Positions 44-59,295 of a DNA stretch of 64,000 nt are shown here, piece after piece. The DNA comes from Fistulifera solaris (taxonomy: Eukaryota), in NCBI GenBank assembly GCA_030295235.1, contig AP026130.1:1302001-1366000 (forward strand), written 5' to 3'. Under the pieces are notes generated by a model, which was given only the letters and a program-made list of their open reading frames with translations, searched no databases and was not told the origin of the DNA. Each line of letters begins with the position of its first letter. The first letter of the stretch is position 1. A program made the translations under genes and the position numbers.

Positions 44-952
44 GTGTCTTCGACGTTTCTTTTATTTGTTCTCTTCGCAGCGGTCAGCGTATCGATAATA
101 TGGAGCAACTCGGCTCATTTCTTCCGAGATTCTTTAGTGTCTTCTCAACAAGACAATCACGCATCGCCGTCATCAGGATCTTCTTCAGCAGTTATTGGTA
201 ATAGTAAACAGCGAAGTTGTACGCAAAAGGTGGGCAACGGCAGCTGCATCGACACCGAAAAAAATCGGTATAATTACTGTTTCAGCCAAGCGAACAGGCA
301 TTCCTTGGAAGCATGTCAATCCATTGCCGCGATTAACAAGGATATTTCCGGGATACAATATGTCAGAAACGAGCATGATGCATATTGTCTTTTGCTCCTC
401 GACGAGTCCACTTTGTCCGGCAAGCCTGGTACCCCTGGTATCGATGCCTCTTGCCCCGATCAGTTTACCTTTCATCGAGAGTCCGAGTCGAGTGGGGGCC
501 ACGGGTCCGTTGCAGGCATTGATAGTGTCGGCGAATGTTATAGCTGCACTGATGGTTATTGCACGGATCGGGTCGGGCCCGGCGAATGCGTAGATGTCAA
601 TCACAACCGTTTCAATTACTGCTTCGCTACCGCGTATGCGCTGCAACAATGTCAGCAGATTGCTTCAAAGAACAAACAACAATTTATTGGTATTGAGTAT
701 GGATCGTTTCAAGGTACATCGTATTGTTTCCTTCTCATGGGTGCGCTCACCACAGAGGGAGTCGATGTCGGTCGTTTGTGTCCGCCCGACTTCATGACCG
801 ATGAATCGTCTGGTTCCAATCGAGGGACGGGTTTGATTCACGATGCAGTCGCTATGAAAGGCTATGAATGCTACGCCTGTTGGGTCGATAGTGGCGCCGT
901 TGTGAGAGATACGACAGCAGTCAACAATAATCAAGACGTTCTGAGTGAGTGA
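44..952 (+). CDS. Secreted or membrane-anchored Cys-rich protein with two internal repeats (possibly PAN/apple-like)
   Basis: 302-aa ORF with a hydrophobic N-terminus and two ~110-aa repeats (CTxxVGxGxCxD...RxNYCF...CQxIA...GIxY...YCxLL...CP...ECYxC). The PAN/apple resemblance is only an impression from Cys spacing. Confidence 0.75.
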   Translation: MSSTFLLFVLFAAVSVSIIWSNSAHFFRDSLVSSQQDNHASPSSGSSSAVIGNSKQRSCTQKVGNGSCIDTEKNRYNYCFSQANRHSLEACQSIAAINKDISGIQYVRNEHDAYCLLLLDESTLSGKPGTPGIDASCPDQFTFHRESESSGGHGSVAGIDSVGECYSCTDGYCTDRVGPGECVDVNHNRFNYCFATAYALQQCQQIASKNKQQFIGIEYGSFQGTSYCFLLMGALTTEGVDVGRLCPPDFMTDESSGSNRGTGLIHDAVAMKGYECYACWVDSGAVVRDTTAVNNNQDVLSE

Positions 953-1445
953 AGTATACGTTGATCGCTGACAGTATTCTTGAAATAGTCTTCGATAGAA
1001 ATGCAATGACTCAACGCTACGCTTACTGTTCTTTGAATGAAGGTAGTCGCCTGTGAGAAAACGACTAACGTGATATTTACTCCAAGCCGGTATATCCTCA
1101 CATCCATTAGCGCCCTTTTGCCAGAACGCGAAAGTTTCCATTGAACTAAGCAACAAAGCCCTAAAATCGTGCTTCTCTTACTGTAGTCATCCTTTTAAAA
1201 TAGCAATGAAGTAGTCAAGATGTGTCATATGAGCGGCATTTAATTTTCAAAATATTAGCTTTCTTGCGAAAAGGACAAACAAGTTTCCCGCACGTAGGTC
1301 TAGATAAGCTTCACCGCATTCGTTAGCTAAAAATTTGTGTCAAGTTCACATCACAACTATTTATAATGATTTTTTAAGCGTTGCACCTTCTTTCGCCTTT
1401 CACGTCAAATAAGCGCAGCCTATTACACATACAGCGAACTGTGCT

Positions 1446-2052
1446 TTAGAGCAGTCCGTAACCGACAAACATGACGGCACCCGTCCATAACGTCGTGGTG
1501 GACACGGTAAAGCTAGCAGAGGATCCTCCGCCAGCGCCTGTGTCGGTGCCCGTGCCTCCGTTGTCACTTCCGTCGTCAACGGCTCCGCCGTCGCTGCCAC
1601 CATCTACCGCTCCACTGTCGTTGCCATCATCCACCGTGCCTTCATTGTCGTTTCCATCATCAACCGCACCACCATTGTCATCGCAAACGAAAGAACAAGT
1701 TCCATCCTCGGTCGTCTGCGATGCAACACAACTCAAAGTACGCATTCGCTTCGGCTTGACAAGCATTACAGCATTGCTGGATCGCGCAAAAGATCTCATT
1801 GAACCAATTGCACAAAAAGTTTGGATCCTCCAGCATGTTCAAGATTTGCTCCTCCGTCCATTCCGGATTTTGATCGACACCTTGGCACTCCGATTCGCAG
1901 ATATTCTGCTTGCTGAGGGCACACGCCTCGTACGCAGCGAGTTCATTGGGGCAAGAATCATCGTTCACAGTGCCATCGCCCCGGACGACCGTATTGACGG
2001 ACGCGAACAGAAGAAGAGAGAGAAGAGAGAGAATAGGTATACGGAAGGGCAT
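1446..2052 (-). CDS. Secreted, probably GPI-anchored 12-Cys domain protein (paralog 1; one frameshift near 1731)
   Basis: ORFs 1678..2052 and 1446..1799 join after removing one T (ANAYFE-CVASQTTEDGTCSFVC) to give a protein colinear with 2810..3340: signal peptide, CPNELAAYEAC domain, acidic DDG repeats, hydrophobic C-terminal tail. Confidence 0.75.
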
Positions 2053-2809
2053 CTTGGAAAAGGGAAAAGAAAGAATGAAAGAAGATGAGGTTACCTTCCA
2101 AATGATTTCGTGATGAATTCAATTCGAAATGCGAAGATGTCGTTTTTCTTTTGTAACGGATTCTTGGCAGAAGACGTATTCGACTTCCGAGTCCTCTGCT
2201 TCCGAGTGCCATATCGGTACTTTATCCACTATACAAATGGTACCTCGCGCAAACTCGTTCAAGATTCATTCCAATATTTCAAATATCGATCGATCGCTTT
2301 AGTACTGTACGATGGCCGTGATCTCCGAGGTATCATACAGCAATCTACTTCTTAATGCAGCTTCAGCATTAGTAACATTAGTTGAAACCGAATCTTACTA
2401 TAGAAGTTACGAGATGCGCTTTCGACATGTGGGAAGAAAAGACGTGACATGATCTTGCTTTTCGAACGAACCTCCACTCGACACGAGGTTACAAAACGCT
2501 TGCTTATAAGTGGCTAAGGAAACATGATAAAGAAGCTGCTGTAAGCAAAACATACTTTAGGCATGAGCGCTATTGTTAAGACTGTTGTGTGTAGTCCGAG
2601 GTGCTCAGTCATGGAACAGATTTTCTGGACGGTGCAATACGAGTACGAAGGAATGCTAGAAAGAACCGACATGCATTTTTTCTTTAATCGCTAGAAACAA
2701 AGAGAACATCAAGCCATGAAAAATGCATTAAATTTACGCCAAAGACGAGTTTTGCGCCGCACACCGAAAAACTATCCAGTCGAGGATGAATCATCATCAA
2801 GCCAACTGT

Positions 2810-3340
2810 CTAGCTCATTGTGTAACCGACAAACACAACCGCACTTGTCCACATCGACACTCTTAACAAGGAAAGGCTACCAGACGAGCTCTGGCCAACA
2901 CCGTCACCACCACTGCCGTCGTTATTATCAGTAGTGCCTCCGTTATCTTTCGCGTCATCCATTGCATCTCCGCTATCAGCGCAAGAAAACTCACAAGTTC
3001 CATCTTCAGCAAGTTCCTTGGCCTGACAATCGAGATAAGCCGTCGCTTCATTCAAGCACATATTGCAGCAGTGGTGGACCGCGCAGTAGGCTTCATTCAA
3101 CCACTCGCACATGAAGCTCGGATCTGTTATCAGTGCGACAAACACTTCTTCAGTAAACTCTGGCTCGTGTTCACAATCATTCTTGCAAGCAGCCATGTTG
3201 TTGGTGGCACAAGCCTCGTAGGCAGCCAGTTCATTGGGACATGACTCGTCGGTAAAGCCGTCACCCTGGACGACAGAGTTGACGGATGCCAACACGATAA
3301 GAGAAAGAAGAGAGAAAGCAGTTTTCGTCAAGCGCAACAT
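2810..3340 (-). CDS. Secreted, probably GPI-anchored 12-Cys domain protein (paralog 2)
   Basis: 176-aa intact ORF: signal peptide, CPNELAAYEAC...CC...C domain, Gly/Asp linker, hydrophobic C-terminus. Confidence 0.8.
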   Translation of the reverse strand: MLRLTKTAFSLLSLIVLASVNSVVQGDGFTDESCPNELAAYEACATNNMAACKNDCEHEPEFTEEVFVALITDPSFMCEWLNEAYCAVHHCCNMCLNEATAYLDCQAKELAEDGTCEFSCADSGDAMDDAKDNGGTTDNNDGSGGDGVGQSSSGSLSLLRVSMWTSAVVFVGYTMS

Positions 3341-3985
3341 TTTAGAGGAGAAAGAGTAGCTTATGGCTCGTCAACAAATGAAATTGTGGAACTAAAGCGA
3401 TATGGAAAAACGGAGTATGAATGATGAATATTGAGAACATTGTGATGCAAAATGCTTTCAGCTTCCGTGTGAAGCGCAAGTGAAACGTGAAACGGGTGCA
3501 CGTTTCGAGCGAATACTGGTAGTGCTCAGACATCCATTCGTCCTTCCGAGTTTGTCCGTTTCTGCACAGAACGTCCACCAGGAAGGTGCATGGCCAGCCT
3601 CATCGCCGTTCGCTTAGGCCTATGAGCTATGTTTCTCATGTCACGTGACCAAAGATCTTTGTCACCTCGCGAAATCGCATAAACGGAAGATAGAATTTGA
3701 ACAAGGGTGACTCCGATCGAACGAAAGGTGGAATACATCATGCAGTTTTGCTCACCGCAGTCTTAAGAATGTAACATGGCATACTGTATCATCCTTTTAC
3801 AAGAGAACTTCACTGACTGGAGCGTGAATGCTTTGCGAAGCCGTAATCGGTAGAAGCACTAAACCGCAGTTGATCCTGAAAATAGAAACACTATATTTTC
3901 AACTAAGGAATTCGGTTCTCTAGATGTTTTATGATCTAATCTATTGGTGGTGTTTGGTATTGATGTCTGCGACTCCAAACAGCTC

Positions 3986-5893
3986 TTAGAACTTCATGTA
4001 CAAAAGAAGAGTAATTGACGCAACAAGCCAAGCTGCGTTTTTCTCACGGCGAGAGAAGCTAGATGCCGTATTCTCTTCCGTGCCTTCAATGGCGTCAAAG
4101 TTGGTGGCCCTGTCCCCGTCGATGGGGTCCAAGATAGCTTGACAGTCAATTTCACCGCAGCCCGCTTCGCGCTCGATACAGCTCCAGTAAGTAGCTTCTT
4201 CAGCGGAACATTGCTCGCAGCAACCACGCATGGCACAGGAAGCCAACTTCATCGGATCACATGTGAGAGAGGGGTCCATCATGTACTGCAAGTCTTCTGG
4301 TTGAACTCTCACGGCGACTTTTCCGCATGTGGGAAAACAATACAAAGGTTGGTTCGCAATACAGTCTTGATAGCTAGCCAGTTCGTTTGGGCACGTCAAT
4401 CCTCCTGAACTTGAACTTGATGAACCTGATCCACCGACGTTAACATTGGTGTTACTGTTGGCTCCATTCGTGTTATTTGAGGTTGTTGAAGGGCTAGTGG
4501 AATTGTTCACCACGGGCGTGCTTCCGTTGGTGGTGGTGGAATTGTTCACCACAGGCGTGCTTCCATTGGCGGTGGTGTTTTGCGGTGGAGACTGGTTGCT
4601 GGTGCTGTTGTTGACGGCATCAGTTGCTGGGGCGACGCCTTGTCCATTCGATCCTCCTGTAACAGGCTTTGTGGTATTGTATGTTCCACTCGAATCTCCT
4701 GTAACAGGCTTAGTAGTGTTATAGGTTCCACTTGGTCCTCCTGTAACAGGCGCTGTGCTATTGCTCGTCCCACTCGACCCTCCTGTGGCAGGCTTTGTAG
4801 TATTGTTCACGCCCGTTGATTCACCCGTCGTAGGCTTTGTGGTGTTAGTTTGCCCACTAGATCCTCCAGTAATAGGTTTCGTAGAGTTTTGACAGTCACA
4901 GTCGCCGTCCGACGGTGCTCCATCTCCATTCGAAGTGTTGTTCGCCGTAGGTGTACTGGATCCTCCTGTGACAGGTGTTGTTCCACCGTTGCTCTCAACA
5001 GGAGGCGTCTGGTTCCCGGTAGAATTAGAACCAGTTCCTGTATTAGTGGGAGCGGGGACATCTCGGCAATCAATAGCTCCACATCCTGTTTCGCGCTCGA
5101 TGCAAAACCAGTACAGAAACTCCTCTAGAGCACAGTCCTCGCAACAGCTGCGTTGCGCGCACGAAGCAATCTCCATAGGAAGGCACAGAACTGAGGGATC
5201 CGACAAATCCGTCAAGTCGTCCGCCTTGAGTGTCACGTCAACATTCGCACAAGAGGTTGAGCATGACTTGCTTGCGACACATTGCTTGAAGATGCCCAAC
5301 TCTCCAGGACACGTCAAGTCTTCCGAACCCGAAGTGTTTGAACCGCTACCTCCAGTCGAGTTAACCGGGTTCGTTCCTGAGTTAGTGTTGTTCTGCAACG
5401 GCGGCTCTCCACTTTGCCCATCGCCGTTATCCCCGTTATTCGTCCCGGTCCCCTGTCCGTTCGATCCGCCGTTGTTTGGAGTAGATACATTCTCTTCCTC
5501 GGAGGGAGATTCTTCTTCTTGTGGCTCGTTGTCAGGAGCCAAGACTGATTCGCAGTCAATTTCACCGCATCCTGCTTCGCGCTCGATGCATGCCCAGTAT
5601 GTTGCTTCTTCAGCGGAACATCGCTCGCAGCAACCGCGCATAGCACAGGAAGCCAACTTCATCGGGTCGCATGTAAGAGAGGGGTCCATCATGTACTGCA
5701 AGTCTTCCGGTTGAACTCTCACGGCGACTTTTCCGCAAGTAGGGAAACAATACAAAGGTTGGTTCGCAATACATTCTTGATAACTGGCTAGTTCATTGGG
5801 GCATGTCAGCTGTGCAATGGCAAGGTTCGGTCCCTGAAGCGTCAAGAAAGACGCGATAAAAATCAATCGTTGTGGTGATAAGTATTTGTTCAT
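3986..5893 (-). CDS. Secreted, probably GPI-anchored mucin-like protein with three 12-Cys domains (paralog 3)
   Basis: 635-aa ORF: signal peptide, three LTCPxEL... domains, N/T/S/G-rich linker with PVTGG repeats and many NxT/S sequons, hydrophobic C-terminal tail. Confidence 0.85.
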   Translation of the reverse strand: MNKYLSPQRLIFIASFLTLQGPNLAIAQLTCPNELASYQECIANQPLYCFPTCGKVAVRVQPEDLQYMMDPSLTCDPMKLASCAMRGCCERCSAEEATYWACIEREAGCGEIDCESVLAPDNEPQEEESPSEEENVSTPNNGGSNGQGTGTNNGDNGDGQSGEPPLQNNTNSGTNPVNSTGGSGSNTSGSEDLTCPGELGIFKQCVASKSCSTSCANVDVTLKADDLTDLSDPSVLCLPMEIASCAQRSCCEDCALEEFLYWFCIERETGCGAIDCRDVPAPTNTGTGSNSTGNQTPPVESNGGTTPVTGGSSTPTANNTSNGDGAPSDGDCDCQNSTKPITGGSSGQTNTTKPTTGESTGVNNTTKPATGGSSGTSNSTAPVTGGPSGTYNTTKPVTGDSSGTYNTTKPVTGGSNGQGVAPATDAVNNSTSNQSPPQNTTANGSTPVVNNSTTTNGSTPVVNNSTSPSTTSNNTNGANSNTNVNVGGSGSSSSSSGGLTCPNELASYQDCIANQPLYCFPTCGKVAVRVQPEDLQYMMDPSLTCDPMKLASCAMRGCCEQCSAEEATYWSCIEREAGCGEIDCQAILDPIDGDRATNFDAIEGTEENTASSFSRREKNAAWLVASITLLLYMKF

Positions 5894-9469: not shown

Positions 9470-10181
9470 ATTGACTGAATTTCGTCACGATCGATATCTA
9501 AGAAATGGTAACAATGAATTACACAAATGCTAGCATTAAATGTATGATCAATTGTATTGGTATTGACGGTGATGTTACAAAATATCATCATCATTCAAAA
9601 CGCAATGTATCGTTCCTTGGATCCGAAAAGCTTTCGCATCGATTACCGGCAAATTCACTATAGGATCAAAGTGATGGTTTACGCTATGCTTGACTGAACT
9701 TGAGTCACGATCGATATCTAAGAAATGGTAACAATGAAGTCCACAAATGCTAGCATTAAATGTATGATCAATTGTATTGGTATTGACGGTGAAGTTACAA
9801 AATATCATCATCATTCAAAACGCAATGTATCGTTCCTTGGATCCGAAAAGCTTTCGCATCGATTGCCGGCAAATTCACTATAGGATCAAAGTGATGGTTT
9901 ACGCTATGCTTGACTGAACTTGAGTCACGATCGAAATACGAAAATAAATAATGAAACGGCAACAGTGAAGTCCACAAATGCTAGCATTAAATGTATGATC
10001 AATTGTATTGGTATTGACGGTGATGTTACAAAATATCATCATCATTCAAAACGCAATGTATCGTTCCTTGGATCCGAAAAGCTTTCGCATCGATTACAGG
10101 CAAATTCACTATAGGATCAAAGTGATGGTTTACGCTATGCTTGACTGAACTTGAGTCACAAGCGAAATACGAAAATAAATG
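9470..10181. repeat. AT-rich tandem repeat, about 3 copies of a 220-231 bp unit
   Basis: TAGCATTAAATGTATGATCAATTG recurs at 9531, 9751 and 9982 with near-identical intervening sequence. A diverged partial copy precedes the first. Confidence 0.95.
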
Positions 10182-13764: not shown

Positions 13765-16700
13765 ATGGCGGAAAGCAGTGCGATGAGTTACGTGCCGACG
13801 GCAGAGGAAGTGGTGCGTATTTTGTTTGATGTTATTAAGTGCTCATCCAGCATCGCGCAAAGTCCCTCTCACCTTCCCTTCACATTGAATATGAACTTAG
13901 CCTTATTACAATGCACTCTTTGCGATGGCGGATACTCAACGTGGTGGCTCGATCGGAGGAGCTCAGGCTGTGCAATTTTTCTCTCGGTCTAAGCTACCGG
14001 TAGAAGTACTCAAGAACGTTTGGACGATCGCGGATCAACCCACGACGAACTCTTTGGATAGGCCTAAATTCGCTGTTGCGGTAAGACTCATTCAACTCAT
14101 TCAAAATGGAGTGAAAGGTCAAGGAACGGATTTGCGAGCACCAGAAGGAGTCGTTTTGAAGCCTGCGTTTTTGAAGGAGTGCCTTTGCCTCCTGCAGAAG
14201 CTCCCCCTCAGCAACAGCAAATGCAGCAGCCTGCTCCTCCGGCGCAGCAACCAGCCCCTCCTGCCCCGCAGATGCAGCAAGCGCAGCCTCCGAATATGCC
14301 CCCTCGCCCTCCGATGCAGCAGCCACAGCCACCGCCCGGACCACCCCAGGACAATCGAGCTTTGACGGTTCAAGATCCTTATATGCTAACTCCTACCGAA
14401 CAAGCTCGTTACGAGGAACTTTTCCCCACGTATGCTCAACCAGATGGTTTTGTTTACGGAAAGGAAGCTGTTGAACTATTCTCGAAATCGGGTGTTCCTC
14501 AGAACAATCTAGCAGCAATCTGGAAAATGGTGGATGAACCTGTCGATAATCGTCTCGACAAATTGGAGTTTGCCATGGCTATGCACTTGATTGTGTGCGT
14601 GTCGAGAAAGAACTTGCCGATGCCTCCGTCTTTGCCGATCTCACTGAAACAACTTAGGTCGCAACGTCCTCAGCAGTCCCCTGGATTGTCACCGCAACCT
14701 ACTTCACCCGAGGCACTCCCCAATTCTTCTCCGCAAATGCAACCGCAACAAGGCATGCTCCCTCCACCCATGCAGTCGCAGCCGGGCATGGGCATGCCGC
14801 CTCCGCAAATGCAGCCTCAGCAGGGAATGGGAATGCCTCCTTCGCAAATGCAGCCACAGCCACCTCAGGGAATGGGCATGCCTCCTCCGCAAATGCAGCC
14901 TCAGCAGGGTGCCGGCATGCCTTCTCCACCGATGCAGCCACAGCAGGCGATGGGCGTGCCCCCTCCGCAGATGATGCAACAACCTGGTTCTCCCAAACCC
15001 CAGATGCAATTTCCTCCGCAATCTATCCCAAGTCCGCCTAGAAGTTCCATGGGTATGGGCATGCCTCCTCCGCCCTTGCAGTCTTGGAGTGCTCCCTCTA
15101 TGGAGCAAAGTCACATGAAGCACGAAAGCATTGGAGGAAATGTGTCTGTCATGTCGCAACTATCGGCACCGCCTCCGTTGCCTACCGGTGGAGCAAGCAT
15201 ATCGGACGCCTTCGATGGATTAGATGGTATGGGATCTGGACCGACAGACATGAATAGTTACTTGGCGTCGGCGCCGCCTGTTCACACCGTTTCGTCCTTT
15301 GATGCCGCGAATCAGCAGGAAGAAGCCCCGTACCTCCGCCTCCACCCGTCACAATGCAGCCAGAGTCGCCCGCTCCGCAGGTCAAACCTCATTTTGAAAT
15401 GCCGCCGCACATACGCTCGGCGATGCTGACAACCGGTCACAGTACTACTTCTGAAAGTCAAGATTTGGAACAACTAAGGGAGATTCTGCAAAAACTCCAG
15501 GCAGAAAATATTGCACTTAAAGCTCAGATGGGTCATCTCGCCGAGGAAGAATCTGTAGTTACGAAGCAGGTTTCTCAAACAGCTGCAGAGCTAAGTCAGT
15601 TATCCAGTCAGCTGACTCAAGTTCGGGCGCAAATGCTCGCCAGTAAGGCACGCTTGATGGAAGCAACAGCGGAACTGAACGCCGCTAAAGAGCGAAAAGG
15701 GTACGTGGAAATGGATTAATCGTGAGATCAGTGCTGGCTAAGAATTGCCTGAGAACTAACTTCTTTAACACTTTGTAGTGTGATTCAAGATTTGATTACA
15801 GAAGTGACTTCTACGAAAGAGGCAATTGACGATGCTACACGAGGGGTAGAAGAGAGTCTGCAACAAATGAAGCTCCAATCCGTTCCGCCACCCTTGCCTC
15901 AAACTAACTCTCTCGACGGAGATCTCTTTGGTTTTGATGCCGCGCCAGCTCCCGCCCCTGCGCTTGAAGAAAGTGCTGTACCGGAGCCGCCTAGTCGTTA
16001 TGAATCTCCACAATACACCGCTCCTCAGGAACCGATGCAACCCCAGGGGCACCAGGACAACTTTATTCAAACTGTGCCATCACAGGCATCTTACGACGAC
16101 AGCATTAACGGTCACAAACGTGATAACTCTTCTGGTTGGTTTTCTGGCGGAATTATGGGTGGAGAGTTCGGTGGGGCGATGGGACAAACCACCACTGCGC
16201 CCTTGTCGCTTAGTGCTAGCACGGGGAATGTGCTCTCGCCTCAAGCTATCAACGAGTTGAAAGCAAAGCACAGAGAGGCTGAAAATGTAGCTCGCGACGC
16301 GGAAGAATCCCGGCGTCAAATTGTTGCCCAAACGGATGAGCTCAGGCGTTTGGCCGACGAGGCGGAAAAGAACTTAAGAGAGTATTCGAAGGAAACCGAT
16401 GACAAAAAGAAAAAAGAAAGGGATGTTTGGAAGTGGACGAGGGAAAAAGAAGGATGAGGTACGTCTTGCAAACCAGATCTTGTTTTAAAAGCTTAACACG
16501 GTGTCCGATTCTAAAATTTTATTTGATCGCAGAAACATGCTAGCGATCTAGCAGAGGATGCCCGAACAAAGAAAGAAGCTTTTATGCAGGCACAATCACA
16601 GCTGAATGACGCAACATCGTTGGCAAAAGACACGAAAGCCGAAGTAGAAAGACTGGCGAAGGAGATTGAAGATGCTGAGATTTCTGCAGCGTCTGCAGCG

Positions 16701-45735: not shown

Positions 45736-46150
45736 TGTAAAAGCTGGTTGTAGATGAAATGCTGGGAATGAGTGAATGGAAAGGAATGTTTGGCTTGAAA
45801 CAAGGATAAGACGACGAGCATGTAAAATAATGAATGCAATGAGGAAAAGCATTCGGGTCGCTGAACTGAGAACACGCACAATAAAACGCTGACATGGACC
45901 CAAAACCAGGCGGGCGTGTCTTTACTTAGCAAAGACGATTGATACTTAGACTCAGTGAAAATTTATATAACTAATAATATTTTGTCAATCGGCGTAAGAC
46001 AACAATTTTTCTGATACTCAGAGTGCCGCGCTTCTTGTTATGACTGTCGGCGGGCGCGCTAGATGACGTCATCACTAAAAATTGAACCCCAGCGTAAAAG
46101 TTTACGCGTGGACGGGAGGACGTGTTTTTTGAAGATGCGAAAACGAGACG

Positions 46151-46480
46151 TGTGAAAATCTACGACGTACGGATAGGCCGCAGATTCGGGCTGTTTGTTT
46201 TATTTTACTTGATATTATGGTGTGTAAAGCGTGATGGAGTCGAATGAGTGTTTCCCTTTGTTTTCCTGTTGATTTCTACTTGATTCGGTAGGTTGTTTGT
46301 TTGGTGTCAAGATAGCGTTCCTTATCTTCCCACTCTTCAGTATGTCGAGCTGTTGTTCCTCATGATAGGATTTAACGACATTAGCTGACAACCGTTCCGA
46401 ATTCTTGATTCGTATTCCTGACGTGTATTCGGGATTGTGGTTCACGAGTCAACCTGTCTCACCATACTGGTTTCCTCGCA
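46151..46480 (-). repeat. 3' LTR (330 bp)
   Basis: Matches 52422-52749 apart from two single-base indels that I could see. Preceded on the minus strand by the polypurine tract TGAGAGGGAG (46481-46490). Confidence 0.95.
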
Positions 46481-46677
46481 CTCCCTCTCAGTCTTCGGCG
46501 TAATCCATTCTTCTTGAAATGTAAATATATGTAGTATGTATTGATGTATTGATGGCCCGGTCATCCTTTTCTTTCTTCATGCAATTCTCGTACATCGCTT
46601 GTTCGTAGTATGGCTTAATCCGTACGAGTTTCCTGATACATGGAATGTAGGTTGCAATAAGATAGCTTACAACGCTA

Positions 46678-49600
46678 CTACCATCCCATGATGGCTTTCC
46701 GATGTCTTCTCAGTAGCTCCGTGTTCAACGGCTTTGTGAGAATGTCTGCTGGTTGGTTTTCCGTACCGATCTTATGAATGGTAATCTCCTTCCGAACAAC
46801 GTAATCGCGAAAGTGATGTAGCTTGACTGCCAAGTGTTTAGTACGCGGTCTCCACTTGTGTGTGGTAGCTATCTCAAGTGCCCCACTGTTGTCTTCGAAA
46901 ACACGACAGTGGACTTTCGGACGATGATCCAATACATCAAAGCCCTTTGCCTTCATTTCCTTAAGAAGCTCCATGATCGGAATAGCTTCTCGAAGGGCAT
47001 AACTTAGTCCTGTGTACTCGGATTCAGTAGAAGAGAGAGCAATTTCAGTTTGCAACTGAGATTTCCAAGTGATGGGACATCCAGCATAGGTTATAATGTA
47101 TCCATGTCGTGACCGGACGTTGTCAGGGTCATGACTTTCATCACGATGATAGTTTCCGCAAAAGTCTGCATCAACAAAAACCTCGAATGACTTCGACAAG
47201 TCTGGTTTGAGAATCATTCCTTTGTCTTTTGTTCCGAGCAAGTAACGACCCAACCATCGGGCAGCGTCTCCGTGTTCCTTTCGGGTTTCCTTAGAGAAGC
47301 GTGCGCACTGGTGCACAGCATACGCGATGTCGGGGCGTGATCCTCTTTCGAGATAATTCAGCTTGCCAATGAGTCTCGAGAAATGGAAACTGTTATCGAA
47401 TAGAGGAGATAGTTTGAATCGCTGGAGAATAACTGATGATCTTGCAGGAGTTTCTTTCGTTTTTGCACCCAACGGTAAGCGTAGCTCATCAAGTACCTGT
47501 TGAATGAGATGTGGCTGTGTCATTTCGATCTCACCGCTTTCTTTTCTTTCGATATTGACGCCTAGAAAGTCGCTCAAGTCACCTTCAACTGTCATATCGA
47601 GAATGGCTTGCATTTCTTTGATTGTGTTGGCAATTTCCGTTTTATCAGGACCGGCAAGGATTGAATCATCAGTGTAGAGGACGTAGATCATTTTTCCTTT
47701 GTAGAAGACACATTCTTCGATGGCAGACTGTTCGAAACCAATCGACTTGAGTTTTGAAACAAGATATTGATTCCAAACGCGACCGGCTTGTTTCTGACCA
47801 TAAGTGTTGCGTCGAAGTTTGAAAACATATTCACCTGGTTGTGCACCTTCGACTTCGAAACCTCTTGGAATTTTCATGTAAAGGTCTCGTTCGACTGGAG
47901 CCTGTGTAAAGGCAAGTACATAATCGAGTTGTTTTGTATGCCAGCCGTGAATGAGAACAAGAATGAGCAATAGTCGAATGGAATTCCAACTTGCAACAGG
48001 TGCGTAAGTCTGATCATAGTCTCGATGCTTGACCATTCGAGAGCCATCAATATTCAAACGAGCCTTCCACTTTTTCACTTTCTGTGTGCGAATGTCACGC
48101 TTGCGTTTCATTTGCCATACTGCAGGTAAGATCGTTGCGTTCTTGGGAACATCGTTGATGTGTTTTAGCTCTAACCCTCCGTGATCCATCTGCGAGTCAA
48201 TTTCTTTGCGCATTGCCAACATGAACTGATCCTTGTCAGGCTCTTTCATTGCTTGATGAAGATACATTGTGTCTGGATCAGATGTCGCTTTGAATGCTAG
48301 TAATGGGTGCCCTGTGTCCTCTTCCTCTTCAGGAAACATTGCCTGAAAAGAAAAGATCTCTCCTTGAATCTGTTGATCCCGTATTTGAATTTCCATTGCA
48401 GCAATCAACCGTTTAGGTGCGGAGTGCTTTCGTGAAGAACGCCGTGTTGCAATGGGAATATTCTTAGGTGCTGTCGCTGACGTCGGCTGTGACTGAAAGG
48501 CTTCCTGGGAAGTTTCGACTGGATTTTCCGCCTCAGGTCGTTCCTGATTTGATGTCGTTGGTGCAGATTCTGCGGTAGACGATGGCGGTTGTTGCTCCCT
48601 CTCGAGCTGAGGGGGGAATGACAGGAGCTCCCTCTGAAGCTGCCGCTGGAGGCAGAAGGGAGAATTCAGCATCCGGTGCTGGTGGATCGGTGGTTGACTT
48701 GCGCTCGGAAGCGGCCACAAATCCAGCTTGTTCCTGCCAGAGCGAGACCGGTCGCTCTTGTTTGGTAGAGTTCTTTACTGTTGTGAAGAGTGAATCCAGA
48801 GTCACGTGAAATTGCGGAGAGACTCGTCCTGTCTGTAGGTTGAGGACGCCAACATTTCTGGAGTGTTGCGGAGATCGGCCAAGATAGAGGCCAATTCGAG
48901 ATCGTTCCATCCATTTGCCACCTTTGGGTCGTCGTTTGCCCTGCTGGAGGGCGTCGTCGAGGACATAGGCTGGGCATCCGAAGTGGTGCCAATGTGTGGG
49001 ATTTTCGTTGACGACAGTACCACTGAAAACTTGTTCGGGGGGACTGGTGGCCAGGATGTTTGAGCCATGGTGTCGCGTTGATCGAGTCATTTGCCATCTT
49101 GATGGCTGCACGGCCAGAGATGTGTCGTGACAGCTTCAGGCCATCGCTTTGCAGCGAAGATCAACATTGTGCGAGCCATATTTTGTAGTTGGCGGATTCG
49201 GTTTTCCGCTTTACCATTCTGATGGTGAGCGTTTACGCTCGCAAATGATAACCCCTGTTGTTTAGAATAACAGTCGCGGACCCAGTCTTGTGCGGCAAAT
49301 GTGCCATTGTCAGCATGATAATGTTTAATAGTCACACCTCTTTGTTTGGCGTGGCGTTCGAAAGCCTCTTTGGCTTGTAGAGTTTCAGTAGGCTGAAGTG
49401 GACTTTTGTAGATGAACATAGCTGAGACTGGAGTATTGATCCACGAAGACGGTGGCTGCGGTGTAGCTCTCTGGTGAGAAAGCCAGCCATCTGGGCAATG
49501 AGACCAGGGCGTTCGGGAAATGAGCTGGTCAACTGATACAACTTCTCCAGGTTTACGAATGTGGTCAACTGGAGAGGCGTTTTGCGATAGTTTTAGTACG

Positions 49601-50960
49601 CCATGGTCGACGTGTTGCTTTGCCGAACTGACATGCGCTGCAAATTGGAACTGGACATTTGGCGAGCCGACGAGGAATAATACCTAGTGTCGCCATGAGT
49701 TGTAGTTTCTTAGGAGAACAGTGTCCGGGCGTAGGTGATATCGAAGGAACTCAGCTGAGACATTGTCAGGCTTGTCTTCGTCATTGTCGGCAATATCGTC
49801 AATAGAAGTCGGTCCATTGGAGTAGACGTCCGAAGTTGAAGTCGTCAGAATTCGTAACTGCGGGAGCGTCGATATCATGTCGAGATGGATCAGCAGTCGA
49901 AGTGTCACCGGTGGGGGACATATCGGAAGCGGTAGCCTCATAGCACATTGGTTCAAGAACGTCGTCATCGTCATCAATGTCGGCTTCGAGCAGAAGGCAT
50001 GGTATTGCGAGTAACCCGATGCCAGGCAGAAGGTCGCGACGTTGGTTCGATGGTCGAGAGGAACAGTTTTCTTGTAACGACGCTGATCCCAGAAGAGTGT
50101 GCACGTGTCGTGAGTAGTAGTTTCTCCCGTTCCCGCTCGCGGCTTGGTATCTTTCTGTGACTTGGCCCAGTGCTGAGGGCTAAACAGTCGGACGCCGCCC
50201 TGCGGTACATAGTAAGAGTTCGGGATCAGAAACGTGTGAAGCATTCCCGAGTCGTCTTCGATCTTCCATCGGAGTGTGCCCATTCGGACATTGTCAATAC
50301 GAGTGCCACCAAACCCCTTGATGTGACGTTTTGTAGGGATAGGGGGATCTTCGAAGTCACGAATGTCATGCGAAATACACGCGGTGCAACGATTATCGAT
50401 GCCAACAGGTGCTGAGTCGGTGTCGAACGACGCAAAATTCATGTGCTTGCCATCCATTATTTGCATCGAAATTAACGACAGCGCCAAAAGTCGCGATTTT
50501 GATCGTTTGATTGGCTTTTTCTTTTTCTTCTTTTGCACCAAAGATAAATTCCAAAAAGAGTAAGTAAAGGAAGAATCTCCACAATCTTGAGAGGAGCGTC
50601 AGAATCGATTGTTTGGCGATTCTGCAAATAGAAATGGCTTTCGCCACCGGTGCGTAACTTGAAAGGATTTTGACTCGTCGATCGTATCGTCGTTTTGTTT
50701 CAAGCTTGAGTGACCAGGCTGCAATGTGCTGGCGCATGATTGTGTTTGACTTCTTGAGCCACGATTTCAACCACTCACACTTTCCTCGTTTTGATTTAGG
50801 AATGTATGAAGCGGTATCATTATCGGGCGGAGGAACAATCACGACCACAATGCAGATAGCTGTGGCGACGACGGAGAAGAGAGCAATGCTCGTAAACCAA
50901 CGAGAAACTGCTCGCCACCACGCCGTGGTCAACGCTTCGCCACAGCGGAGCCTCCTTGGA
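46678..50960 (-). CDS. pol: Copia pol (protease, integrase, RT, RNase H), fragmented by multiple indels
   Basis: Protease VGIDNRCT; integrase YHADNG..F, HHQNGKAENRIR, HFGCPAYVL, GLYLGRSP; RT WKARL, QLDYVLAFTQA, YGQKQAGRVW, VLYTDD; RNase H FVDADF, LSSTESEY, FEDN, QPADILTK. Confidence 0.93.
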
Positions 50961-50963
50961 GGC

Positions 50964-52358
50964 TCACTCGGAGTCGCTTTCGGTGTCGTCGTGGCCATCG
51001 ATGGCCTCGAGCGCCTTTGCAAACTTGAGTTTCTTCTTCTGGTCGTTCTTGCCACTGAACTTCTTTTCCTTTTCCTTTCCCATGCGACAATCAACCGGCT
51101 TGTGTCGGCACCAGCGCTTGAGTGCGGTGCACCACCAGTACTCCTTGTTGTCGACCTTCTTGGGTTTGGACTCCTCTCCGGACTTGGGAGGTTCCTTCAT
51201 CCAGTCGGCAATGTCTGTTTTCTTGTCCTTTGCCTGCGGAGAATCCTTTGCGTTGGACTTCCCTTTTGTGCTGGGAGTCTTGCCTCTGTTGTTCTTTCCG
51301 GCGTTGTTCTTCTTCTCCATGTTGCGGATTTTCGTTTCGAGTGCGAGAATTCGTTTGTCCGCTTGAGCAGAAGCCTTCCATTCGCCCACGGCCGACGAGG
51401 GATTTTGTACTTTCCTTCGGCTTTGTCCATGAGATCCTCGGGAGTCATTTCCAGCGCCTTCTTCGTACAGTTCTTCCTTGCTTTTGATGAACCGAACGAA
51501 CTCGTCGTCTTTCGCGGCTTTGTAACCTTTGATGAGATGGATCATGAGGTCTGTCGAAGTCTCGCCGTGGTTGCGAAGCTCCAGCATGAGCGTTTTGACT
51601 TGGATGTTGAACTTCAAGATGTCCGAGTCAACTGTGCTCATGTATGCATCCAAACCTGCAAGTTGCGTTCGAATGTTTGACACAGTTGCGTGCGTTTGCG
51701 TGCCCGATACCTCAATGATGACCTTGAGGAAGGGAACTCCGGCTGTGATACCATTGATTGTGTATCTGTCGGACTTGATAACCACTTTTGTGCGTCCTGC
51801 CGCGAGAGAGCGAGTTCCACAACATGTTGTAGAGCATGATCGAGTCCTGTGCGTCGCGAGTTTGAGTTCCCACGTACGAGGCCGCATGGGCCTGAACCTC
51901 GTCGAGTGTGATCCTTCCATGACTGGTGAGAAAATGGAGGACGACGGGCTGCGAAGTTGGAGTATCGCTAGGTGCGGGATCTGGTAGATTCTTTCGAATC
52001 CTGCGACGTTGCCGTTGTTTGGTGAGCTCCAATAGGTCGAAAAGTCCTTCAGCTCGCAATTGAACAATTCACTTGAGTCGCCGTAAACGCTGCGGGTAAC
52101 ACTCTGAAAGGTCTTGATTCCTTCAGGGCGTGAGTAGTCAAGGATGCCTCGTGTCGCCCTGGGCGGGCACAAGAGCAAAGGGAATCGGTGCGGGAACGTT
52201 GTCTGCACCGCCTTGTCCCTGGTTTGCGTCTCCTTCTGGTCTTGACCTCCATCACCACCATCACCCCCGCCGTGGTGGCCTCCTGGGGCGTTGTGGGGAC
52301 CTGCTCCGCTCGGTGTCGCCCCAGAGGCCGCGGCAGCGCGAGTAGTTACGGTAGACAT
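50964..52358 (-). CDS. gag: Copia gag (contains compensating frameshifts)
   Basis: GILDYSRPEGIK, AQDSIMLYNMLWNSLS (alternate frame), DILKFN, HLIKGY, and a C-terminal Cys/His knuckle YWWC...WCRHKPVDC. Confidence 0.8.
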   Translation of the reverse strand: MSTVTTRAAAASGATPSGAGPHNAPGGHHGGGDGGDGGQDQKETQTRDKAVQTTFPHRFPLLLCPPRATRGILDYSRPEGIKTFQSVTRSVYGDSSELFNCELKDFSTYWSSPNNGNVAGFERIYQIPHLAILQLRSPSSSIFSPVMEGSHSTRFRPMRPRTWELKLATHRTRSCSTTCCGTRSLAAGRTKVVIKSDRYTINGITAGVPFLKVIIEVSGTQTHATVSNIRTQLAGLDAYMSTVDSDILKFNIQVKTLMLELRNHGETSTDLMIHLIKGYKAAKDDEFVRFIKSKEELYEEGAGNDSRGSHGQSRRKVQNPSSAVGEWKASAQADKRILALETKIRNMEKKNNAGKNNRGKTPSTKGKSNAKDSPQAKDKKTDIADWMKEPPKSGEESKPKKVDNKEYWWCTALKRWCRHKPVDCRMGKEKEKKFSGKNDQKKKLKFAKALEAIDGHDDTESDSE

Positions 52359-52407
52359 GGTTCAGAGACGTTTGTAGTTGATAATACCTTAATAGATGCT
52401 TTGTTAA

Positions 52408-52423
52408 GCGCAGAGGAAGCGTG
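52408..52423 (-). other. Candidate primer-binding site complementary to the D-arm of initiator tRNA-Met
   Basis: Plus strand GCGCAGAGGAAGCGTG versus GCGCAGCGGAAGCGTG of vertebrate/plant tRNAiMet as recalled (15/16), abutting the 5' LTR. Confidence 0.65.
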
Positions 52424-52749
52424 TGAAAATCTACGACGTACGGATAGGCCGCAGATTCGGGCTGTTTGTTTTATTTTACTTGATATTATGGTGTGTAAAC
52501 GTGATGGAGTCGAATGAGTGTTTCCCTTTGTTTTCCTGTTGATTTCTACTTGATTCGGTAGGTTGTTTGTTTGGTGTCAAGATAGCGTTCCTTATCTTCC
52601 CACTCTTCAGTATGTCGAGCTGTTGTTCCTCATGATAGGATTTAACGACATTAGCTGACAACCGTTCGAATTCTTGATTCGTATTCCTGACGTGTATTCG
52701 GGATTGTGGTTCACGAGTCAACCTGTCTCACCATACTGGTTTCCTCGCA
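52422..52749 (-). repeat. 5' LTR (328 bp)
   Basis: Direct repeat of 46151-46480. Confidence 0.95.
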
Positions 52750-52822
52750 GAGACGAACATTGACATTGTAATCGCCACGGAGTATCATTCACTGCACTTT
52801 ATCTCGCAACGCTACTGTTCTC

Positions 52823-57461: not shown

Positions 57462-59295
57462 GTCTAGAATTTTGGAAGGTGCGCAGCATTTCGGTAGGAT
57501 CGAAAAATATGGTCCAGAATTTCTGGACCACCACAGACTACACGAATCCAGAATTTCTGGAACACGCACTTTCGTTCCCAAGGATTTACAACGAAGTTAT
57601 CTGAACTTTTGGAACGCGTATTTTCTTTCGTTATGATCCCAAACACCGTGCCCAACGTACACAGCTTTTCGATCGGTTCAAAAGACTGGTCCAGAATTTC
57701 TGGACCACCACAGAAATTCTGTATGATCATGAATCATGAATGACTTTTCCAGAATTTCTGGAATTATCATTTGCTTACGTTATGATCCAACACCAGAGTT
57801 TCCAGAACTTCTGGAGCGTGCATTTTTCTTCGTTATGATCTAAACCACCATCCATAGAATTTCTGCAACGTGCACAGCATTTCGATCGGTTCGAAGAAAC
57901 TGGTCCAGAATTTCTGGACCACCACAGAAATTCTGTATGATCATGAATCATGAATGACTTTTCCAGAATTTCTGGAATTATCATTTGCTTACGTTATGAT
58001 CCAACACCAGAGTTTCCAGAACTTCTGGAGCGTGCATTTTCCTTCGTTATGATCTAAACCACCATCCATAGAATTTCTGCAACGTGCACAGCATTTCGAT
58101 CGGTTCGAAGAAACTGGTCCAGAATTTCTGGACCACCACAGAAATTCTGTGTGACCATGAATGACTTTTCCAGAATTTCTGGAATTATCATTTTTTCGTT
58201 ATGATCCAACACCAGAGTTTCCGAGGTTTCGGGAACATGCTTTTTCCTTCGGTATGATCTAAACCACCATCCATAGAATTTCTGCAACGTGCACAGCATT
58301 TCGATCGGTTCGAAGAAACTGGTCCGGAATTTCTGGACCACCACAGAAATTCTGTATGATCATGAATCATGAATGACTTTTCCAGAATTTCTGGAATTAT
58401 CATTTGCTTACGTTATGATCCAACACCAGAGTTTCCAGAACTTCTGGAACATGCTTTTTCCTTCGTTATGCTCCAAGACACCTTGTCCAGTATTTCTGAA
58501 CCGTGCATAGCCTTTCGATCGGTTCAAAAGACTGGTCCAGAATTCTGGACCAACACAGAAATTCTGTATGATCATGAATCATGAATGACTTTTCCAGAAT
58601 TTCTGGAATTATCATTTTTTCGTTATGATCCAACACCAGAGTTTCCGAGGTTTCGGGAACATGCTTTTTCCTTCGGTGTGCTCCAAGACACCTTGTCCAG
58701 TATTTCTGAACCGTGCATAGCCTTTCGATCGGTTCGAAGAAACTGGTCCAGAATTTCTGGACTAACACAGAAATTCTGTATGATCATGAATCATGAATGA
58801 CTTTTCCAGAATTTCTGGAATTATCATTTTCTTTCGTTGTGATCCAACACCAGAGCTTCCAAGATTTCTGGAGCGTGCATTTTCCTTCGTTATGCTCCAA
58901 GACACCTTGTCCAGTATTTCTGAACCGTGCATAGCCTTTCGATCGGTTCAAAAGACTGGTCCAGAATTTCTGGACCAACACAGAAATTCTGTATGATCAT
59001 GAATCATGAATGACTTTTCCAGAATTTCTGGAATTATCATTTGCTTACGTTGTGATCCAACACCAGAGTTTCCAAGATTTGGGAACATGCTTTTTCCTTC
59101 GGTATGCTCCAAGACACCTTGCCCAGTATTTCGGAACCGTGCATAGCCTTTCGATCGGTTCAAAAGACTGGTCCAGAGTTTCTGGACCACCACAGAAATT
59201 CTGTATGATCATGAATGACTTTTCCAGAATTTCTGGAAAATTCACGTTCTTTCGTTATGATCCATACCACGCTCTCCAGAATTTCTGGAAATTCC
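57462..59295. repeat. Satellite array, about 8 units of 205-214 bp built from palindromic sub-repeats
   Basis: CCACCACAGAAATTCTG-type anchor at 57705, 57919, 58133, 58338, 58550, 58762, 58975 and 59187. Each unit has several TCCAGAA-N-TTCTGGA variants, and both ends are degenerate. Confidence 0.97.

What the first reader, a model, noticed from the sequence alone, without database searches (positions are those of the whole stretch)
52408..52423. Copia PBS matches the D-arm of initiator tRNA, suggesting priming by a ~23-25 nt 5' tRNA fragment
Seen: the element strand just inside the 5' LTR reads CA|CGCTTCCTCTGCGC and lacks the TGG that pairs with a tRNA 3' CCA end. Its complement GCGCAGAGGAAGCGTG matches nt ~10-25 of eukaryotic tRNAiMet (GCGCAG-C-GGAAGCGTG in vertebrates/plants, from memory), and the one mismatch falls at a D-loop position that differs between species. 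Established: Ty1-like elements prime from the tRNA 3' end, and Drosophila copia and Ty5 use a tRNAiMet half ending in the anticodon arm. Inference: this element may use a third mode, a short 5' tRF ending at the D-arm. I do not know whether this has been described for CoDi elements.
Basis: partly seen in the sequence, partly recalled or inferred. Interest (0 to 1): 0.8.

Follow-up and report, generated by a model that had tools for sequence, protein, structure and literature searches.

The report
Diatom copia primer site matches tRNA D-arm
A jumping gene in a diatom genome, and dozens of distant relatives, carry a reverse-transcription start site that pairs with an inner part (the D-arm) of the initiator methionine tRNA, which points to priming by a short 5' piece of that tRNA.

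Summary
The window holds one young Ty1/copia element on the minus strand (46151-52749; LTRs of 328 and 330 nt with no substitutions). Directly after the 5' LTR's terminal CA lies CGCTTCCTCTGCGC (52421-52408), with no TGG.

- **tRNA match:** The 16-mer including that CA is the exact complement of positions 10-26 of tRNA-Met(CAT) genes. 35 of its 57 occurrences in viral contigs lie there, and 28 of those have an initiator-type T-loop.
- **Conservation:** RT-based sampling of metagenomes gave 77 relatives (48-67% RT identity). 49 carry the block on the RT strand and 42 match it exactly. It gives 43 distinct junctions, with flanks unalignable on both sides.
- **Variation:** It is concentrated at the D-loop position (T 38, C 5) and at the last base of the block.
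- **LTR boundary:** Six 3' LTRs followed by host DNA all end in ACA. This puts the primer's 3' end at G24.
- **Rivals:** Self-priming and a tRNA 3' end are excluded.
- **Prior reports:** I found none. A 2019 survey names only three primer types.
- **Not shown:** the host's exact D-arm letters (one 47-nt contig matches 31 of 34 over positions 7-41), and the primer molecule itself.

The parts
52422..52749 (-). 5' LTR (328 nt), element sense TGCGAGG...GATTTTCACA
   Evidence: Direct repeats and an LTR alignment with 0 substitutions and 2 single-base indels. The end at CA is fixed by the 3' copy.
52408..52421 (-). Primer binding site proper, CGCTTCCTCTGCGC (14 nt), complementary to tRNA-Met positions G24 back to G10
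   Evidence: Twelve of the 14 positions are invariant across 43 distinct junctions. The exceptions are the D-loop position (T 38, C 5) and the last base (C 39 of 43).
52408..52424 (-). Full conserved tRNA-complementary block, A-CA-CGCTTCCTCTGCGC (17 nt, tRNA 27 back to 10). Its first 3 nt are the end of the LTR.
   Evidence: A at -1 in 40 of 43 junctions, CA in 42 or 43 of 43. T27 in 26 of 28 initiator-type tRNA genes that carry the 16-mer.
50964..52358 (-). gag ORF (ATG at 52358-52356, 464 aa)
   Evidence: 12 homologues, none with a Pfam family.
46678..50598 (-). pol region in four frames: 49684-50598 (PR region), 49087-49683 and 48533-49135 (IN), 46678-48774 (RT/RNase H)
   Evidence: RVT_2 at E 2.3e-45 and SH3_retrovirus at E 1.2e-5 (25.5 bits, below Pfam's 27-bit cut-off).
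46481..46489 (-). Polypurine tract GAGAGGGAG, abutting the 3' LTR
   Evidence: The same tract lies before the 3' LTR in L061 and L093.
46151..46480 (-). 3' LTR (330 nt)
52750..52755 (-). Target-site duplication, upstream copy CGTCTC (6 bp; or GTCTC, 5 bp)
46145..46150 (-). Target-site duplication, downstream copy CGTCTC

Best explanation
The 14 nt after the 5' LTR are the minus-strand primer binding site of a diatom Ty1/copia element. They pair with the D-arm (positions 10-24) of the host initiator tRNA-Met, not with a tRNA 3' end.

DNA synthesis must start from a 3'-OH paired next to U5, and the integrated LTR ends at the CA just upstream. The primer is therefore a tRNAiMet piece whose 3' end is G24. 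If it starts at nt 1 it is about 23 nt long.

**Shown:** the complementarity, its position at the LTR boundary, its conservation across 43 unalignable junctions, and the absence of any other candidate site.

**Inferred:**
- The RNA is tRNAiMet of the host.
- The cut lies at 24/25.
- The fragment is either pre-made or cut after annealing.
- The site stops at G10 because position 9 of tRNAiMet is m1G (recalled), which would stop plus-strand strong-stop synthesis. This is by analogy with m1A58, which sets the 18-nt site of retroviruses.
For: **Anatomy of the element.** LTRs, TSD, PPT, gag and RVT_2 pol are all present.

**The 16-mer is a tRNA-Met D-arm.** 35 of its 57 occurrences in viral contigs lie at tRNA positions 10-26 of CAT-anticodon genes. 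28 of those have the GATCRAAAC T-loop and 26 have A1.

**Conservation in relatives chosen by RT alone.**
- 49 of 77 loci carry the block on the RT strand, and 42 match exactly.
- In 43 distinct junctions the top base frequency is 0.88 or more across the 16-mer plus the A before it. Most flanking columns lie at 0.3-0.5. A few next to the block are higher (T at -3 in 33 of 43, A at +2 in 33 of 43, A at +3 in 27 of 43).
- The block is spread over the whole RT tree (quick tree; 10 of the 77 loci with short RT matches were left out).

**LTR boundary.** Six 3' LTRs followed by host DNA all end A-CA and then diverge. Four were found by script and two by eye.

**Variation sits where pairing matters least.** The D-loop position reads T 38 and C 5. 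The last base is C in 39 of 43.

**The base that would pair with G9 is C in only 4 of 43 junctions**.

**The host has an initiator-like tRNA-Met.** One contig has acceptor AGCACT and matches 31 of 34 letters over positions 7-41 with no gap in the D-loop.

**Principle of a modification-set site length.** Passages of PMC13191261.
Against: - The host's exact D-arm letters were not seen. The 3 differing letters of the 34 could fall inside the 16-mer.
- There are no RNA or cDNA data. No RNA run was listed.
- The same D-arm 16-mer also occurs in 7 non-initiator-type CAT tRNA genes and one tRNA-Pro gene in viral contigs. The D-arm alone therefore does not name the tRNA.
- L058 has 408 nt upstream of its gag ATG without the block.
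- A at +2 in 33 of 43 junctions hints that pairing may resume at U8. That fits a clean stop at position 9 less well.
- Complementarity runs 3 nt into the LTR (ACA against U25-G26-U27). The primer end could therefore lie at 26-27, with RNase H leaving ribonucleotides behind.
- This window copy has frame breaks in pol.
Confidence: 0.7

Rival explanations
1. The block is an auxiliary tRNAiMet-binding box, used for packaging or for building the initiation complex, like the D-arm contacts of Ty1 and Ty3. Priming would then happen by another, unrecognised route.
For: Ty3 pairs the tRNAiMet D arm with its U3 region, and Ty1 has extended contacts (passages of PMC5371799).
Against: The block abuts the LTR's CA in all 43 junctions. 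No other conserved block, TGG site or self-complement exists nearby. A site at exactly this place is what defines a PBS.
Confidence: 0.07
2. The primer is another host RNA with the same D-arm sequence, such as an elongator tRNA-Met or another tRNA, and not the initiator.
For: In viral contigs the 16-mer also sits in 7 CAT-anticodon genes without the initiator-type T-loop and in one tRNA-Pro gene.
Against: 28 of the 35 tRNA hits are initiator-type. The host contig that matches through the anticodon loop begins with A1. Other Ty1/copia elements use tRNAiMet.
Confidence: 0.1
3. Self-priming as in Tf1: the 5' end of the transcript folds back on the site.
For: None found.
Against: The longest exact complement of the block in the upstream 350 nt averages 4.6 nt, against 5.0 in shuffles, over 37 distinct junctions. 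The longest single case is 7 nt. The window's LTR has no match with up to 2 mismatches.
Confidence: 0.02
4. The resemblance to the tRNA is a chance match.
For: Within the window alone, 2 matches with up to 2 mismatches against 0.54 expected is not striking.
Against: The same 16-mer sits at the same junction in 42 further distinct families whose flanks cannot be aligned.
Confidence: 0.01

Closest known systems
Half-tRNA priming of Drosophila copia and yeast Ty5 (tRNAiMet cut in the anticodon arm)
   Same: Same element superfamily and same tRNA species. The 3' end is internal and must be made by a cut. The site abuts the LTR and has no TGG (passages of PMC5371799, and PMC6317226).
   Different: Here pairing covers positions 10-24 (to 27) in the D-arm, not the anticodon stem-loop. 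The fragment would be about 23 nt rather than about 39 nt (the copia and Ty5 figures are recalled).
3'-end tRNAiMet priming (Ty1, most plant copia lineages, metazoan GalEa with TGGTAGCAGAGC)
   Same: Same tRNA and same place of the site.
   Different: There is no TGG and no acceptor-end complementarity in 0 of 43 junctions.
Tf1/sushi and TAR self-priming
   Same: No tRNA 3' end is used, and a cut creates the primer.
   Different: The LTR holds no complement of the site.
Auxiliary D-arm contacts of tRNAiMet in Ty1 and Ty3
   Same: The D arm of tRNAiMet pairs with element RNA.
   Different: In those elements the contact is additional to a 3'-end site and lies elsewhere. Here it is the only site, and it sits at the LTR edge.
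Fungal GalEa 'conserved hairpin site' (no PBS)
   Same: A copia branch-1 relative with a non-classical site at the PBS position.
   Different: That site is a palindrome with no tRNA match. This one is a plain tRNA complement.

Membership tests
Ty1/copia (Pseudoviridae) LTR retrotransposon | Copia-type reverse transcriptase (Pfam RVT_2) | tested here: met
   E 2.3e-45, 155.6 bits against a cut-off of 31.6.
Ty1/copia (Pseudoviridae) LTR retrotransposon | Integrase lies upstream of RT | tested here: inconclusive
   SH3_retrovirus scores 25.5 bits, below its 27-bit cut-off, in the ORF just upstream of RT. The integrase-like start of the RT alignment consensus was judged by eye.
Ty1/copia (Pseudoviridae) LTR retrotransposon | TG..CA LTR pair, polypurine tract and short target duplication | tested here: met
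   The TSD reads as 6 bp (CGTCTC) or 5 bp (GTCTC).
CoDi (copia of diatoms, Maumus 2009) | RT clusters with the reference CoDi1-7 elements | not tested
   No reference CoDi sequence was available. The host is a diatom by SHMT relatives (67-70% identity to named diatoms). The nearest named RT relative is from Fragilaria crotonensis (58%).
Half-tRNA-primed copia elements | Site complementary to the anticodon stem-loop end of the tRNA 5' half | tested here: not met
   The complement lies at positions 10-26, upstream of the anticodon stem.
3'-end tRNA-primed elements | Site starts with TGG (complement of CCA) | tested here: not met
   0 of 43 junctions.
Self-primed elements (Tf1 type) | The LTR holds a complement of the site | tested here: not met
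tRNAiMet as the primer RNA | The host tRNAiMet carries the exact 14-mer at positions 10-24 | tested here: inconclusive
   A host contig matches 31 of 34 letters over positions 7-41 with no gap. The differing letters were not listed.

The most novel reading that the evidence does not exclude
A whole radiation of diatom copia elements starts reverse transcription from a roughly 23-nt 5' piece of initiator tRNA-Met ending at G24 in the D-stem. This would be a fourth primer class, beside whole tRNA, half tRNA and self-primer. The 14-nt site length would be set by a methylated G9. The LTR's terminal ACA mirrors U25-U27, so the tRNA may anneal whole and be cut in place.
Probability: 0.55. Interest if true: 0.8.

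Novelty: new variant of a known kind. Interest (0 to 1): 0.72.

Why it matters
Reviews list three ways in which LTR elements prime reverse transcription (passages of PMC6317226). A D-arm-ended tRNA piece would add a fourth. It would also tie retrotransposition in diatoms, a major phytoplankton group, to the making of short 5' tRNA fragments.

It is directly testable. The block is invariant, so one probe or primer serves many families.

It also has a practical side. Annotation pipelines keep LTR elements only if a site matches a tRNA. One example is the LTRdigest filter in the Cyclotella genome paper. That LTRdigest compares sites with tRNA 3' ends is recalled. Such filters would drop these elements. 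Conversely, the 16-mer marks the 5' junction of this clade in metagenomes.

Tried and rejected
- **Own genome:** none is held, so the host tRNA set could not be scanned. ARAGORN finds no tRNA in the window.
- **Viral contigs with the RT protein:** 28 pattern hits, none a relative.
- **gag as bait:** only 12 homologues, 2 of them from the searchable metagenome source, so RT was used instead.
- **RNA evidence:** no RNA holder was listed.
- **Laying reads on a tRNAiMet reference:** X3 and X5 laid nothing. The differing letters of X1's contig were not listed. The 9 contigs laid from X2 (a metagenome) cannot be tied to the host.
- **tRNA genes next to relatives:** only one doubtful tRNA-Ala call, in L115.
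- **Earlier findings of this scan:** nothing turned up.
- **Papers:**
  - Maumus 2009 has no mention of tRNA or a primer binding site (term search of the full text).
  - The P. tricornutum small-RNA paper names D-loop/anticodon fragments but not iMet. Its Table S3 is a PDF that I could not read.
  - Ke 1999 is not held.
  - Searching the library for the site's letters gave one unrelated goldfish paper.
  - Word searches found no description of a D-arm site.
- **Careful tree:** not finished in time. The quick tree was used.

Full report
**What is in the window**

Window 46151-52749 holds one LTR retrotransposon on the minus strand.
- Two direct repeats align as LTRs of 328 nt (52422-52749) and 330 nt (46151-46480). 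They show no substitutions and two single-base indels.
- In element sense the LTR runs TGCGAGG...GATTTTCACA.
- It is flanked by CGCTTC-free copies of CGTCTC, at 52755-52750 and 46150-46145. This reads as a 6-bp target duplication, or as 5 bp (GTCTC) plus one chance C.
- A polypurine tract GAGAGGGAG (46489-46481) abuts the 3' LTR.
- Inside lie a 464-aa gag ORF (ATG at 52358) and a pol region split over four frames.
- Pol carries RVT_2 at E 2.3e-45 and an integrase SH3-like match just upstream of RT. That match scores 25.5 bits, below its 27-bit cut-off.
- It is the only LTR element in the window, and the window has no tRNA gene.
- The host is a diatom. Its serine hydroxymethyltransferase is 67-70% identical to named proteins of Mayamaea, Cyclotella, Seminavis and Nitzschia.

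**The observation**

The + strand at 52408-52423 is GCGCAGAGGAAGCGTG. In element sense the LTR's last CA (52423-52422) is followed by CGCTTCCTCTGCGC (52421-52408), then an unremarkable leader, and then the gag ATG 50 nt further on. No TGG follows the LTR.

**Is the 16-mer a tRNA D-arm?**

I had no eukaryotic tRNA library, so I scanned the viral-contig collection for the exact 16-mer. It gave 57 occurrences in 56 loci.
- ARAGORN calls tRNA-Met(CAT) across the match in 33 of the 56 loci.
- By register, 35 of the 57 occurrences lie at tRNA positions 10-26 in front of a CAT anticodon loop.
- 28 of these have the T-loop GATCRAAAC, 26 start with A1, 26 have T at position 27 and 10 have the GGG/CCC anticodon stem. 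That these are eukaryotic initiator hallmarks is recalled knowledge.
- The rest are 12 loci of one unrelated repeated virus sequence, 9 scattered loci and one tRNA-Pro with the same D-arm.

The 16-mer, with A at the variable D-loop position, is therefore a real and common initiator-type tRNA-Met D-arm. It is not exclusive to initiators.

**Are related elements the same?**

The RT/RNase H ORF has 1743 relatives. I aligned it with 23 of them and used the alignment to fetch DNA from metagenome contigs. Of 332 confirmed relatives the best 80 were kept, giving 77 loci at 48-67% identity. The choice was by RT alone, so it was blind to the site.

- **Presence.** The block CACGCTTCCTCTGCGC, with up to 3 mismatches, is on the RT strand in 49 of the 77 loci and is exact in 42. 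One further 3-mismatch hit on the other strand of L063 is spurious.
- **The 28 loci without it.** In 27 of them gag runs off the contig's 5' end, or the contig holds only pol or pol plus a 3' LTR. L058 has 408 nt of repetitive leader before its gag ATG and no block, so it is undetermined.
- **Distinct junctions.** After merging near-copies there are 43 distinct junctions, the window included. The commonest base reaches 0.88 or more in each of the 16 columns and in the A before them. Most flanking columns stay at 0.3-0.5. A few next to the block are higher (T at -3 in 33 of 43, A at +2 in 33 of 43, A at +3 in 27 of 43).
- **Variation.** Fourteen of the 17 columns are 42/43 or 43/43. The exceptions are the D-loop position (T 38, C 5), the last base (C 39 of 43) and the A before the block (40 of 43).
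- **Phylogeny.** I built a quick RT tree of 68 rows. Ten loci with tblastn matches shorter than 380 of 440 residues were left out. The block occurs in all major branches, and the C variant arises at least twice.

**Where the LTR ends**

In six cases a 3' LTR is followed by host DNA. They are the window, L074, L076 and L113 by script, and L061 and L093 by eye. All six end in A-CA and then diverge (CG, CC, GA, CT, AT, AG).
- The CA therefore belongs to the LTR, and the site proper is the 14 nt that pair with G24 back to G10.
- The first DNA base would be laid opposite the A of CA, so the primer's 3' end is G24.
- The three LTR-terminal bases ACA are also complementary to U25-G26-U27. This may reflect only the usual TGT...ACA ends of LTRs.
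- Alternatively the tRNA may anneal beyond the cut, or the primer may end at 26-27 and leave ribonucleotides behind. I cannot tell which.

**Rivals**

- **Self-priming.** The longest exact complement of the block in the 350 nt upstream averages 4.6 nt, against 5.0 in shuffles, over 37 distinct junctions.
- **A tRNA 3' end.** No TGG in 0 of 43 junctions.
- **An auxiliary tRNA box as in Ty1 or Ty3.** This is possible in principle. But nothing else is conserved near the junction, and the block sits exactly where a primer must sit.

**The host tRNA**

No genome is held. I found runs that hold the locus: X1, organism A, holds 0.88 of the sampled words. I laid four runs on an initiator-type tRNA-Met gene from a viral contig, L013:592-663.
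- X1 gave one 47-nt contig at depth 36.9.
- It reads AAT, then AGCACT, then 34 letters on tRNA positions 7-41 with 3 differences and no gap.
- The host therefore has an A1-type tRNA-Met with a D-loop of the same length.
- The three differing letters were not listed, so exact identity of the D-arm is not shown.
- A recent copy's site is expected to be refreshed from the primer at each cycle (established for retroviruses; here an inference). This argues that the host tRNA has A at position 16.

**How it most likely works**

A piece of tRNAiMet that ends at G24 primes minus-strand synthesis into U5.
- Plus-strand strong-stop DNA then copies the primer back from G24. In retroviruses this copy stops at m1A58, which fixes the 18-nt site (passages of PMC13191261).
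- Here the block stops at G10, and the base that would pair with G9 is C in only 4 of 43 junctions. This fits a block at a modified G9.
- That tRNAiMet carries m1G9 is recalled, not tested. A at +2 in 33 of 43 junctions is left unexplained.
- The nuclease is unknown. RNase P is cited for the Ty5 cut.

**What is known**

- Neumann 2019 states that the primer types described are a whole tRNA, a half tRNA cut in the anticodon stem, and a self-primer (passages).
- Donnart 2017 gives TGGTAGCAGAGC for metazoan GalEa, an internal tRNA-Lys match for FunCo1, and a hairpin site for fungal GalEa (passages).
- Maumus 2009, which defined CoDi, does not mention tRNA or a primer site (term searches of the full text).
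- Searches for the site's letters and six word searches found no description of a D-arm site. The library lacks most subscription journals, so an older report cannot be excluded.

**Verdict**

The priming molecule itself is inferred. I rate this a new variant of tRNA-fragment priming, widespread in a diatom copia clade.

Noticed in passing
L057 3-773 / 777-4910; also L058, L064, L070, L082, L096, L112, L116, L119: In relatives, gag ends at a single stop codon and pol follows in the same frame three bases later. This suggests stop-codon readthrough for gag-pol.
   Followed up: no
window 46678-50598 and the two LTRs: The window copy's pol is split over four frames, yet its LTRs differ only by two single-base indels and no substitution. 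The frame breaks may be assembly indel errors rather than decay.
   Followed up: partly
L059, L062, L063, L065, L066, L071 and others; L076 (2981 and 8971) and L089 (126 and 6435): Many metagenome contigs are circular permutations, running pol, LTR, PBS, gag. Two contigs hold two PBS copies about 6 kb apart. The cause could be collapsed LTRs in assembly, tandem copies or one-LTR circles.
   Followed up: no
43 junctions, 3 to 10 nt after the block (for example L089, L091, L106, L104, L115, L097): A subgroup shares TAAAGAACG-like letters right after the site. Across all junctions, A stands at +2 in 33 of 43.
   Followed up: partly
L001, L010, L015, L016, L021, L027, L029, L032, L033, L038, L047, L054: Twelve viral contigs of 4-9 kb share one identical stretch that happens to contain the 16-mer. 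It has no tRNA or LTR context.
   Followed up: no
L004 592-666: A viral-contig tRNA-Pro(TGG) gene carries the same D-arm 16-mer as the tRNA-Met genes.
   Followed up: no
window 57523-59286; 9502-10180; 14734-14979; 4643-4894: Several tandem repeats: period about 212-214 nt over 1.8 kb, three copies of 228 nt, and 39-45-nt and 42-nt coding-like repeats.
   Followed up: no
L058 1-408: A long leader built of repeated GAGACGATCGGAACGTTCG-like units lies before gag, with no D-arm block within reach.
   Followed up: partly
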